From: Escherichia coli
Lineage (GTDB): Bacteria > Pseudomonadota > Gammaproteobacteria > Enterobacterales > Enterobacteriaceae
Assembly (NCBI RefSeq): GCF_009931435.1
Contig: NZ_CP043414.1
DNA length: 64,000 nucleotides
Direction: 5' to 3' (one strand)
Shown here: positions 21,211 through 23,339 of the stretch, piece after piece
Layout: each line of letters opens with the position of its first letter
How positions within the stretch are numbered: position 1 is the stretch's first letter
The notes under the pieces: generated by a model
Databases searched by the model: none
Told to the model about the DNA's origin: nothing
The model's input: the letters and a program-made list of their open reading frames with translations, nothing else
Translations under genes and position numbers: made by a program

Positions 21211-21609
21211 TTATTTTCCGTGGCCAAAATTTAGAATTCTCCCATCATTTTTGCCTATTTCTATAATAAAAACCCCACCAGCAATTTGTTCTGATTGAAT
21301 GGTGCCTTCAACAATCCAACTTATTGGTAATTCCTTGATTTTGTATGGTTTTTCTTCTTCTGCGGCATCATGCCCATAACGATTCTTAACATATATCTCA
21401 GCTAATTCCAATGCTATGGATTTATTTTTAACCAAATTTCTAACGGTATATTTCCCCTCACTTTCATACTTGCGCATTATTATAATATTATTACACTGCG
21501 CCCATGTGTTGTATGTAAAAACAAACAAAGATACAATTACACAGGTTCTGAATAATATTTTCTTACACGTTGCCATGTATTCTGCAAACATTAGGCAATC
21601 CTTTTCCAT
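21211..21609 (-). CDS. Small predicted secreted protein of unknown function; candidate orphan immunity protein; full-length paralog of the 23112..23339 ORF
   Basis: AT-rich ORF; probable signal peptide MATCKKILFRTCVIVSLFVFTYNTWA; start codon ambiguous (ATG at 21609, 21576 or 21477); conserved block ALELxxxYVKxxYGxxxAExxKPYxI...GG.F.I.I.K.DG.xLNxxH.K shared with 23112..23339. Confidence 0.6.
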   Translation of the reverse strand: MEKDCLMFAEYMATCKKILFRTCVIVSLFVFTYNTWAQCNNIIIMRKYESEGKYTVRNLVKNKSIALELAEIYVKNRYGHDAAEEEKPYKIKELPISWIVEGTIQSEQIAGGVFIIEIGKNDGRILNFGHGK

Positions 21610-21928
21610 TTGTTATATCTTTCCCATGATTATCTATTGCTTTAAAATTTTCACCTATTGACCTTGAATTACTAAAATCACTTCCAGTGAAATCTGAGTT
21701 ATTCAGAATAGCATTCATCAGAGCCGCATTGCGAAAGACAGCATTTCTAGTTGATGTATGTTGAATCATTACATTTCTTAAATGAGTTTTTTCAAATTTC
21801 GCCCCATCAAGACAATAACCATTGAGGATGGCACGATGTAGATTCATCCCGCTAAAATCATATCCAGCAAGAGTGGTACTATCTATCTCAAGAAATTTAT
21901 TGGTTATTAAAAATGCGATTCTTATCAT
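21563..21928 (-). CDS. Pentapeptide-repeat protein (predicted right-handed quadrilateral beta-helix); candidate immunity / DNA-mimic protein
   Basis: Clear 5-residue periodicity: FSGMN LHRAI LNGYC LDGAK FEKTH LRNVM IQHTS TRNAV FRNAA LMNAI LNNSD FTGSD FSNSR; ATG at 21928 has GGAGGA 6 nt upstream (the track's 21940 start is TTG). Confidence 0.7.
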   Translation of the reverse strand: MIRIAFLITNKFLEIDSTTLAGYDFSGMNLHRAILNGYCLDGAKFEKTHLRNVMIQHTSTRNAVFRNAALMNAILNNSDFTGSDFSNSRSIGENFKAIDNHGKDITNGKGLPNVCRIHGNV

Positions 21929-21991
21929 CTGTTCCTCCAATCATCTAACTCCGGAAAATTTGAAAACCAGAACCTCGCTTAGGGGGTAGGA

Positions 21992-22066
21992 TTATTCTGC
22001 GTACCACGCTGTTGTCCTTTCCGTGCTGATAAGGGCCAGCAAGTTATCCGGTTTGCTTCGTTGAGT
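21992..22066 (-). pseudogene. Relic of an Rhs core 3' region (about 20 codons, stop codons on both sides)
   Basis: Minus-strand reading ..RSKPDNLLALISTERTTAWYAE* resembles RhsB ..[24 protein letters not shown]..; DNA 21991-22045 is roughly 85% identical by eye to rhsB 24841-24895. Confidence 0.55.
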
Positions 22067-22158
22067 TCACCACGCTAAAGCTCCGTGTCCACATAACCTA
22101 GGTCGGAGGCATGACCTTCTCTGGTTCGTCCCATCTAAAATGTCTATAAAGAACATGG

Positions 22159-22560
22159 TTATTCAATTATTTTTTCTTTGAGTTTATTCTCAATCCAGCT
22201 GTCTTTATACCTGATGAAAATTTGACACTCACCAATATTATCAATGTCTCCAGAATTTGTATTTGGAATTTGTCCAACTGCAACTATAGTTGATTCAAAA
22301 TATTCAACATTGACATTATCTGTAATTATTGAAATTATATAATCATCTGGAATAGAGCCATTAGGAGTTATATTGAAGAAACTAACACCTGAAAATACAA
22401 AATAACCATCTTCTAAGTCTTCATTATCATAAAAATTCCATTCTGTTGTACCATAGGCTATCCTTGAGATTAAATTAACCTGAATTCTAATTTGTTTACT
22501 CCATAAATCAAATTCAATTTTTTTTATTGCTCGATCACCAAGATATATTCTATCAAACAT
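22159..22560 (-). CDS. Hypothetical 133-aa protein in the Rhs-associated AT-rich region; candidate orphan immunity protein
   Basis: ATG start with AGGGGG 5 nt upstream; AT-rich; no recognisable family by eye. Confidence 0.55.
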   Translation of the reverse strand: MFDRIYLGDRAIKKIEFDLWSKQIRIQVNLISRIAYGTTEWNFYDNEDLEDGYFVFSGVSFFNITPNGSIPDDYIISIITDNVNVEYFESTIVAVGQIPNTNSGDIDNIGECQIFIRYKDSWIENKLKEKIIE

Positions 22561-23111
22561 ATTACCCCCCTATTCTAAAAATACTCAGGCATTCCGCACA
22601 TTATATCAGCCTCATCTTGATTGCTTCTCGTTTCCCGATACGGCGGCGCGGGGAGTCATAAAGGTAAGAAATTTCCAGCAGTACGGCGTCCTATTGTTCA
22701 CGGCGGTAATGCACCAGCCAGTATTGGCTATCGTAGTGATAACCGTGTAACCTGCCGCCGCATCGCGTATCTAATGTTCATTCTTTTCCATAAACCGTCC
22801 GTACACATTGTGATAGTAAAAATACAATACATCTTTGCTGATGCGGTTATTCTGCTGCATGTGGGGAGCGCCGAATACTGCTCCCGGTATGGCCAGTAAT
22901 TACTATTTAGTACGACGTTAGGGGGAGTCAATTAATCTCACAGATACTTCAAGTAACAGATGAAAATCGCTCCTGAAATGAAAAAAGAAATTTTTTTGAA
23001 TGTGTTCCTGTCAAATCAAGTGGTTTTTTCGTCGATATGTAGAGTCATATTGTAAACAAAATTGTTACGAAACACACCTTGGTAAAATATTTGAATCGAC
23101 TGTACAGTGGA

Positions 23112-23339
23112 TTATTTTGTGTGTATTACATTCAACACTTGCCCATCTTTTTTCGCTATTAGTATTGTAAAATTTCCTCCTAACGTCTTCGGTTGTTTTC
23201 CCTCGATTTTCCAACAATTATTGTCATCTGTAATACTATATGGTTTCTGAAATTCTGCTTTTTCTTTCCCGTATACATATTTAATGTAAACATATGATAA
23301 TTCCAAAGCCATTTCACGACTATTTACTAAAATTTCCAC
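23112..23339 (-). pseudogene. 5'-truncated paralog of the 21211..21609 secreted-protein gene (signal peptide lost)
   Basis: GTG-initiated 75-aa ORF VEILVNSREMALELSYVYIKYVYGKEKAEFQKPYSI...; homology to the paralog continues 6 codons upstream (VSGKENP) to an in-frame stop inside the palindrome. Confidence 0.6.

What the first reader, a model, noticed from the sequence alone, without database searches (positions are those of the whole stretch)
21211..23339. Paralogous small proteins (one full-length with signal peptide, one truncated) in the orphan region
The ORFs at 21211..21609 and 23112..23339 share a conserved block (..ALELxxxYVKxxYGxxxAExxKPYxI...GG.F.I.I.K.DG.xLNxxH.K). The full-length copy has a probable signal peptide, suggesting a periplasmic immunity-like protein family duplicated within the locus. 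The start codon of the full-length copy is ambiguous, and the longest version overlaps the 3' end of the pentapeptide ORF.
Basis: seen in the sequence. Interest (0 to 1): 0.45.

Follow-up and report, generated by a model that had tools for sequence, protein, structure and literature searches.

The report
Two orphan Rhs immunity genes (YhhH family)
The two small ORFs are members of a known E. coli immunity-protein family (YbbC/YhhH, Pfam Imm-NTF2-2) left behind in the rhsB locus after their toxin genes were replaced: one is an intact copy of the K-12 gene yhhH, and the other has lost its start codon and export signal.

Summary
The 132-aa and 75-aa ORFs share 42% identity (BLASTP E 3e-17), and both match Pfam PF15631 (Imm-NTF2-2) end to end.

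The family is already known. The window is the E. coli rhsB locus (nikR–rhs–…–yhhJ–rbbA). The long ORF is the ortholog of K-12 yhhH (88% identity), and RefSeq annotates near-identical copies as "YbbC/YhhH family protein" and "NTF2 fold immunity protein".

They are not a local duplication. Each ORF is preceded by the 3' stub of its own lost DUF4329 (Tox-JAB-2) Rhs toxin domain, so they are two separately acquired, now orphaned, toxin–immunity cassettes. The overlap with the "pentapeptide ORF" is the ancestral 29-nt rhsB/yhhH overlap, because the last ~30 codons of that ORF are the RhsB toxin tail.

The short copy descends from a 100-aa secreted protein. Its ATG is now ACG and two in-frame TAA codons destroy the signal peptide.

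Two added inferences. 94 of 110 full-length family members have signal-peptide-like N-termini. The predicted fold is closest to PepSY and cystatin peptidase-inhibitor domains. The family therefore probably acts as an exported inhibitor of a periplasm-acting JAMM-type toxin. Low novelty.

The parts
21211..21591 (-). yhhH ortholog: an intact orphan Imm-NTF2-2 (YbbC/YhhH family) immunity gene of 126 aa, with a predicted signal peptide of about 31 aa and a C-terminal PF15631 domain. The longest ORF runs to 21609; another ATG lies at 21576.
   Evidence: ORF. PF15631 E 2.8e-24. 88% identical to K-12 YhhH. DNA is collinear with K-12 rhsB-3'end/yhhH/downstream. RefSeq annotates 'YbbC/YhhH family protein' in the 99%-identical strain. 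dN/dS versus K-12 is 0.26.
21563..21654 (-). 3' stub (about 30 codons plus stop) of a K-12-RhsB-type DUF4329/Tox-JAB-2 toxin domain. It now forms the C-terminal end of the chimeric 'pentapeptide' ORF and overlaps the yhhH start by 29 nt, as in K-12.
   Evidence: Window ...NFKAIDNHGKDITNGKGLPNVCRIHGNV* versus K-12 RhsB ...NFKAIDNHGKEITNRKGLPNVCRVHGNM*. DNA homology to K-12 begins at about 21654. K-12 RhsB-CT matches PF14220 DUF4329 at E 5e-40.
21655..21940 (-). Pentapeptide-repeat gene fragment (N-terminal part) fused in frame to the toxin stub. The likely ATG is at 21928, preceded by GGAGG.
   Evidence: Weak NCBIfam pentapeptide hits, all far below curated cut-offs. RefSeq annotates the homologous stretch as two pseudogene pieces. 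No intact parent was found in E. coli complete genomes.
21993..22140 (-). Degenerate remnant of an rhs core 3' region (…ALISTERTTAWYAE…). It marks an older rhs junction.
   Evidence: Translation compared with the RhsB core ALISTEGATAWCAEY. blastn places 21993-22040 in rhsA/B/C cores at 98% identity, and 21993-22140 in 'RHS domain-containing protein' at 82%.
22159..22560 (-). DUF6258 family ORF (133 aa). It travels with the ybfC/short-copy block.
   Evidence: ORF. RefSeq annotation.
23112..23339 (-). Short Imm-NTF2-2 copy: a 75-aa GTG-initiated ORF that holds the whole PF15631 domain but has no export signal.
   Evidence: ORF. PF15631 E 1e-20. RefSeq 'NTF2 fold immunity protein'. 85-89% identical to the intact 100-aa P0007 and P0006.
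23340..23414 (-). Dead N-terminal (signal-peptide) part of the short copy. The ancestral ATG is ACG at 23414..23412, and in-frame TAA TAA lies at 23366..23361.
   Evidence: Alignment with intact and other E. coli copies. Sequence read.
23424..23561 (-). 3' stub (about 45 codons plus stop) of a second, different DUF4329 toxin domain. It begins about 20 nt after the ybfC stop.
   Evidence: Window INHSEKHVLNGYPGTPEGRFGKMDSDGRNIIYSECNVLPSTFEIR* versus the intact Rhs-DUF4329 of L006 ...INYSKKHVLNGYLGTPEGRFGKMDFDGKNIIYSECNVLPTTFEIR*.
23583..24152 (-). ybfC (189 aa, signal-peptide-like N-terminus), the presumed immunity gene of the resident Rhs toxin tip.
   Evidence: ORF. RefSeq 'protein YbfC'.
24149..28348 (-). 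Main Rhs core protein (1399 aa) of the locus, with a non-DUF4329 C-terminal tip.
   Evidence: ORF. RefSeq 'RHS element core protein' between nikR and ybfC.
20864..21121 (-). Truncated yibA-like (HEAT repeat) fragment, equivalent to the K-12 yrhC pseudogene position.
   Evidence: NCBIfam PRK09687 partial hit covering profile positions 1-66 of 285. RefSeq pseudogene 'lyase… missing C-terminus'. K-12 map.
20344..20778 (-). Truncated ISAs1-family (H-repeat/yhhI) transposase fragment that ends the rhs element next to yhhJ.
   Evidence: NCBIfam transpos_ISAs1 E 3e-39, profile positions 1-102 of 314..

Best explanation
The two ORFs are orphan immunity genes of the Imm-NTF2-2 (YbbC/YhhH, PF15631) family in the 3' 'orphan' tail of the E. 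coli rhsB element. Each was once the partner of an Rhs C-terminal toxin domain of the DUF4329 / Tox-JAB-2 (JAMM metallopeptidase-fold) type.

Shown: successive replacement of the Rhs toxin tip removed the two older DUF4329 toxins except for their last ~30 and ~45 codons. The current tip is paired with ybfC.

Shown: the downstream copy is the intact ortholog of K-12 yhhH and keeps its signal peptide. The upstream copy has lost its ATG and has two stop codons in its signal-peptide region, leaving a 75-aa GTG ORF that holds only the folded domain.

Inferred mechanism: the protein is exported by its Sec-type signal peptide to the periplasm. There its small helix-plus-four-strand domain, which resembles PepSY and cystatin domains, binds and blocks an incoming DUF4329 JAMM-type toxin delivered by neighbouring cells.

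Inferred consequence: the intact orphan yhhH can still protect against strains that carry the K-12-type RhsB toxin. The decapitated copy cannot reach the periplasm and is most likely a decaying pseudogene.
For: Identity and family: BLASTP E 3e-17. PF15631 full-length matches. RefSeq names in near-identical strains. 88% identity and collinearity with K-12 yhhH.

Toxin partner: K-12 RhsB-CT matches DUF4329 at E 5e-40. Zhang et al. 2012 list Imm-NTF2-2 as the immunity of Tox-JAB-2 (=DUF4329). Intact relatives of the short copy lie 9 nt after Rhs-DUF4329 genes. A 31%-identical metagenomic member lies 10 nt after a '...YHTHGA...FSEAD...YLATP' ORF end.

Stubs.

Decay of the short copy: ATG>ACG and TAA TAA in the window; a different stop in EDL933; a 2-nt deletion in strain WP2-W18. 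Cluster sizes are 316 (75 aa), 238 (91 aa) and 455 (115 aa, frameshifted end), against 27 and 2 for the intact 100-aa forms.

Export: 94 of 110 full-length family representatives have an N-terminal hydrophobic signal-like segment, and 24 of these also have a lipobox-like motif. All 123 aligned representatives match PF15631.

Selection: dN/dS is 0.26 for yhhH versus K-12.
Against: There is no experimental evidence for immunity function, export, or any toxin activity of DUF4329. The papers found only predict it.

The literature predicts a nuclease or RNase activity for Tox-JAB-2, which would act in the cytoplasm.

Signal peptides were judged by hydrophobicity and motif rules, not by a trained predictor.

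The fused toxin-immunity model gave no usable interface information (pTM 0.58, no coordinates available).

The low dN/dS values mostly reflect divergence that predates orphaning, so they do not prove present-day selection. In other strains the orphan yhhH is frameshifted.
Confidence: 0.8

Rival explanations
1. Local tandem duplication: one immunity gene was duplicated inside this locus and one copy was then truncated.
For: Two members of one family lie 1.5 kb apart on the same strand.
Against: The copies share only 42% protein identity. Each is 85-89% identical to genes at other rhs loci. Each is preceded by the tail of a different DUF4329 toxin (FEIR* versus HGNV*). The ybfC/short-copy/DUF6258 block occurs as a unit at the rhsC locus of EDL933 and BL21, with no adjacent yhhH.
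Confidence: 0.03
2. Both ORFs are functionless relics. The orphan yhhH copy is also not expressed or not useful, and is intact only because too little time has passed for it to decay.
For: Its cognate toxin is gone. No promoter signal above the shuffled background was found in the region. The same gene is frameshifted in other strains with this locus layout.
Against: The ORF, signal peptide, start-codon context and all family-invariant residues are intact. dN/dS versus K-12 is 0.26. Retention of orphan immunity genes as protection against neighbours' toxins is a recognised phenomenon (author's knowledge, not tested here).
Confidence: 0.2
3. Cytoplasm-facing immunity against a nucleic-acid-targeting toxin. 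As the literature predicts, Tox-JAB-2 would be a nuclease or RNase, and the hydrophobic N-terminus of YhhH/YbbC would be an uncleaved membrane anchor or irrelevant. The signal-less 75-aa copy could then still be a working cytoplasmic immunity protein.
Against: 85% of full-length family members carry signal-like N-termini, many with lipoboxes. The toxin domain is cysteine-rich. The closest structural neighbours of the immunity domain are extracytoplasmic peptidase-inhibitor domains. The short copy carries different inactivating lesions in different lineages.
Confidence: 0.15

Closest known systems
E. coli K-12 YhhH (b3483), downstream of rhsB
   Same: Same chromosomal locus (nikR–rhsB–yhhH–yrhC'–yhhI–yhhJ). 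88% protein identity. Same N-terminal signal-like segment. Same 29-nt overlap with the end of the upstream toxin reading frame.
   Different: In K-12 the gene follows a complete RhsB with a DUF4329 tip. Here only ~30 codons of that tip remain, fused behind a pentapeptide-repeat fragment, and the active Rhs tip of the locus is a different one paired with ybfC.
E. coli K-12 YbbC (b0498), downstream of rhsD
   Same: Same Pfam family and same partner toxin type: the RhsD tip contains the AYHTHGADSHG…FSSSD motif. The N-terminus is signal- or lipoprotein-like (LFAC).
   Different: About 50% identical to the long copy. It sits at a different locus.
Pfam PF15631 Imm-NTF2-2 / Tox-JAB-2 (DUF4329, PF14220) pair of Zhang et al. 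2012 (PMC3482391)
   Same: Both ORFs match the family model end to end. The conserved Y and W are present. Toxin remnants of the DUF4329 type lie directly upstream.
   Different: The 2012 description says 'E. coli only' and 'NTF2 fold'. Here 385 cluster representatives (at 50% identity) from public genomes and metagenomes match at E<=1e-3, and the 123 that were aligned all hit PF15631. The predicted fold is nearest to PepSY and cystatin domains, with NTF2-like proteins scoring lower.
Orphan rhs toxin/immunity cassettes (displaced C-terminal tips downstream of a main rhs gene)
   Same: Located 3' of the main rhs gene, on the same strand, with low G+C (0.35-0.38 versus 0.6 in the core). An rhs-core remnant is present, and the element ends with an ISAs1/H-repeat.
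   Different: Typical orphan cassettes keep a toxin-encoding fragment that can be re-activated by recombination. Here the toxin parts are reduced to 30-45 codons, so only the immunity halves remain.
PepSY domains (PF03413) and M4/M36 protease propeptides; cystatins
   Different: The window proteins themselves give no significant PepSY sequence match. Homology is not established, and the target would be a JAMM-fold rather than an M4/M36 or papain-type peptidase.

Membership tests
Imm-NTF2-2 / YbbC-YhhH family (PF15631) | Significant full-length match to the family profile | tested here: met
   Long ORF E 2.8e-24, model positions 1-68 of 68. Short ORF E 1e-20, positions 1-68 of 68.
Imm-NTF2-2 / YbbC-YhhH family (PF15631) | Conserved Tyr and Trp (Zhang et al. 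2012 list 'Y, W') | tested here: met
   Y67, Y72 and W92 (numbering of the 126-aa protein) are invariant in the 12-sequence alignment that includes both window copies. Y72 and W92 are at least 90% conserved across 123 sequences.
Imm-NTF2-2 / YbbC-YhhH family (PF15631) | Encoded immediately downstream of a Tox-JAB-2 / DUF4329 toxin domain | tested here: met
   In the window only the 3' stubs of two DUF4329 domains remain directly upstream. Complete toxins are present in K-12 and in L006/L007.
Imm-NTF2-2 / YbbC-YhhH family (PF15631) | NTF2 fold | tested here: inconclusive
Imm-NTF2-2 / YbbC-YhhH family (PF15631) | Neutralises the cognate toxin (immunity function) | not testable with these tools
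   No experimental report was found in the searched library.
Imm-NTF2-2 / YbbC-YhhH family (PF15631) | N-terminal export signal (a feature of most members, found here) | tested here: met
   Long copy: met. Short copy: not met. Its signal-peptide codons are disrupted by ATG>ACG and TAA TAA.
PepSY (PF03413) | Significant match to the PepSY profile | tested here: not met
   Neither window protein gives a PepSY hit. Only 1 of 123 relatives matches at E<=0.001, and 10 at E<=0.1. The resemblance is structural only.
Orphan rhs toxin-immunity module | Lies downstream of a full rhs gene, with a fragment of rhs core and/or toxin tip followed by an immunity gene | tested here: met
   Order on the minus strand: rhs – ybfC – toxin stub – short copy – DUF6258 – rhs-core remnant – pentapeptide fragment + toxin stub – yhhH – yibA' – ISAs1'.

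The most novel reading that the evidence does not exclude
Imm-NTF2-2 proteins are exported, PepSY/cystatin-like peptidase inhibitors. Their partner toxins (DUF4329 / Tox-JAB-2, widespread on Rhs and T6SS effectors in E. coli and Salmonella, and reported on Rhs tips in Xanthomonas) would then be periplasm-acting JAMM-type (iso)peptidases, not the nucleases or RNases the in-silico literature calls them. The window contributes an intact orphan inhibitor gene (yhhH) and a natural 'signal-less' allele.
Probability: 0.4. Interest if true: 0.5.

Novelty: already known. Interest (0 to 1): 0.2.

Why it matters
For this locus it matters little. It is a textbook rhs orphan tail, and both genes are already named in RefSeq and Pfam.

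The analysis corrects the local annotation in three ways:
- The "pentapeptide ORF" is a chimera that ends in a toxin tail.
- The two copies come from two separate displaced cassettes, not from a duplication.
- The short copy is a decapitated pseudogene.

The wider by-product is a testable hint. The whole family is exported and looks like a peptidase-inhibitor domain. If so, the common DUF4329 Rhs toxins probably act in the periplasm as peptidases, which disagrees with the "RNase" label that in-silico T6SS effector surveys repeat.

Tried and rejected
- NCBIfam gave no family hit for either ORF or for ybfC/DUF6258, so Pfam and RefSeq annotation were used instead.
- A sequence search of PDB with the family profile found nothing significant; the best hit was E 0.5 to chitinases.
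- The promoter/terminator scan showed no enrichment over shuffles, so no statement on expression is possible.
- Context look-ups for distant family members mostly returned contigs too short to show the toxin. Only L018 was informative.
- A search for an intact parent of the pentapeptide fragment in complete E. coli genomes found only the same pseudogene pieces.
- The local-duplication reading was considered and rejected (see rival explanations).
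Full report
**Where we are.** The window carries rbbA/yhhJ on the plus strand up to 20190. A low-G+C stretch follows (0.35-0.43 at 20-24 kb), and then a 1399-aa Rhs protein lies on the minus strand at 24149..28348. A megablast of 20200-24200 against complete E. coli genomes finds the region in 272 genomes at 80% coverage or more. The best hit is 99.2% identical, and there RefSeq places it between nikR and yhhJ. That position is the rhsB locus of K-12, nikR–rhsB–yhhH–yrhC'–yhhI–yhhJ–rbbA.

**The observation.** Both ORFs exist as described. They align over 74 residues at 42% identity, E 3e-17. Each matches Pfam PF15631 "Imm-NTF2-2, NTF2 fold immunity protein" over the whole 68-position model, at E 2.8e-24 and 1e-20. 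RefSeq calls the counterparts "YbbC/YhhH family protein" and "NTF2 fold immunity protein". It was described by Zhang et al. 2012 as the immunity partner of the Tox-JAB-2 toxin domain, which is Pfam DUF4329.

**The long copy is yhhH.**
- Translated from the ATG at 21591, it is 88% identical to K-12 YhhH.
- The DNA is collinear with K-12 from ~21654 through the gene and into the downstream spacer.
- That start corresponds to the K-12 start and to the RefSeq call. It has AGGA 9 nt upstream, so it is the most likely of the three ATGs.
- The N-terminus (KK…R, then TCVIVSLFVFTY, then NTWA|QC) looks like a Sec signal peptide.

**The "pentapeptide ORF" is a chimera.** Its last 28 residues, NFKAIDNHGKDITNGKGLPNVCRIHGNV*, are the C-terminal end of the K-12 RhsB toxin tip, …NFKAIDNHGKEITNRKGLPNVCRVHGNM*. 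The K-12 RhsB tip is a DUF4329 domain, E 5e-40. The 29-nt overlap between that ORF and yhhH is exactly the rhsB/yhhH overlap of K-12. Upstream of the pentapeptide fragment, 21993..22140 is a degenerate piece of rhs core that matches rhsA/B/C cores at 98% over 48 nt. The yhhH gene therefore sits behind the wreck of its former toxin gene.

**The short copy.**
- Its closest intact relatives are 100-aa proteins, MKNSFISLALILFAISHSVFG|RENS… (P0006 and P0007, 85-89% identical). They have a signal peptide and are encoded 9 nt after Rhs proteins with a DUF4329 tip at another chromosomal site.
- Aligning those loci with the window shows that homology starts ~20 nt after the ybfC stop. It covers the last ~45 codons of that toxin (…GTPEGRFGKMDSDGRNIIYSECNVLPSTFEIR*) and continues into the immunity gene.
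- In the window the ancestral ATG is ACG (23414..23412), and codons 17-18 are TAA TAA (23366..23361). Only a GTG-initiated 75-aa ORF without the signal peptide remains.
- Other lineages carry other lesions: a stop in EDL933 and a 2-nt deletion near the 3' end in WP2-W18.
- In the protein database the damaged forms dominate: 316, 238 and 455 member sequences, against 27 and 2 for the intact forms.
- The block ybfC–short copy(–DUF6258) is present in 848 of 5426 E. coli genomes. In BL21 and EDL933 it lies at the rhsC locus.

**History (inferred).** The two copies are not a local duplication. They are the immunity halves of two different DUF4329 cassettes. One is native to rhsB (K-12 type). The other arrived already orphaned together with the ybfC-type tip that now forms the active end of the Rhs protein.

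**What the family does (inferred).**
- An exhaustive phmmer search finds 385 cluster representatives at E<=1e-3. All 123 that I aligned hit PF15631, so the family is much wider than "E. coli only".
- Of 110 full-length representatives, 94 have an N-terminal hydrophobic segment of signal-peptide type, and 24 of these also have a lipobox-like motif.
- An AlphaFold model of the window's YhhH has pLDDT 88.9. It shows an N-terminal helix (the signal), a short extra helix, and then a core of one long helix packed on four strands.
- Ten relatives give weak PepSY Pfam hits.
- The toxin part of a fused model matches JAMM/MPN+ enzymes: BRCC36 9.2, PfJAMM1 8.6, AfJAMM 8.5, Cap3 7.8, RadC 7.6. The E…HTH…S..D motif is intact, and four cysteine positions are kept in all compared variants, with two more in most.
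- A distant metagenomic member again follows a "…YHTHGA…FSEAD…" ORF by 10 nt.

Taken together, the most economical mechanism is an exported inhibitor domain that blocks a periplasm-acting JAMM-fold toxin. This conflicts with the "nuclease/RNase" label for DUF4329 in the literature. In the papers I could read, that label is a prediction only, and one states outright that the activity and substrate are still unknown. It remains an inference, because no assay, no signal-peptide predictor and no interface model were available.

**Consequences for the two copies.** The intact yhhH could still protect against K-12-type RhsB toxins from neighbours. Its dN/dS versus K-12 is 0.26, although much of that divergence predates orphaning, and the gene is frameshifted in other strains. 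The short copy keeps the domain but cannot be exported, so it is most likely a pseudogene in decay.

**Verdict.** The family, the genes and the locus architecture are already known, so interest is low. The side hypothesis on the toxin's site and mode of action is recorded as the novel case.

Noticed in passing
window 23358..23395: A perfect 38-bp palindrome (18-nt arms, 2-nt centre) lies inside the dead signal-peptide region of the short copy. All 14 related loci, including a 99.4%-identical strain, read ATATCACACTCAGTA where the window reads ATATCATAATAAGTA. Three substitutions within 5 nt turn an imperfect inverted repeat into a perfect one and create the TAA TAA stops. This looks like a quasi-palindrome template-switch mutation.
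   Followed up: partly
window 21563..21940: The 'pentapeptide' ORF is an in-frame fusion of a pentapeptide-repeat gene fragment with the last ~30 codons of an RhsB-type DUF4329 toxin. RefSeq labels both pieces 'pentapeptide repeat-containing protein' pseudogenes, which mislabels the 87-nt toxin tail. No intact parent pentapeptide gene was found in complete E. coli genomes.
   Followed up: partly
window 23583..24152 and 24149..24750: YbfC, the presumed immunity protein of the resident Rhs tip, also starts with a signal-peptide-like sequence ([21 protein letters not shown]). The Rhs tip itself is Pro- and Cys-rich and matches no family tested, so the active toxin of this locus may also act outside the cytoplasm.
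   Followed up: no
window 22600..22940: The spacer between the short copy and DUF6258 has higher G+C than its surroundings and contains two copies of 'TGACTCCCC'. In related strains an IS3-family element is inserted between DUF6258 and the pentapeptide fragment. It may be IS or REP debris.
   Followed up: no
L016 (metagenome contig), 1..3157: A distant Imm-NTF2-2 member sits at the end of a run of small unannotated ORFs, one with a faint Peptidase_M91 hit. This resembles a poly-immunity or orphan array outside E. coli.
   Followed up: no
proteins P0148, P0154, P0262, P0278: Some family members contain two tandem Imm-NTF2-2 domains behind one signal peptide.
   Followed up: no
window 11001..15000: A second low-G+C block (0.32-0.38) lies upstream of yhiI/rbbA. 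In the related genomes a DUF4049-domain gene is annotated just upstream of yhiI.
   Followed up: no
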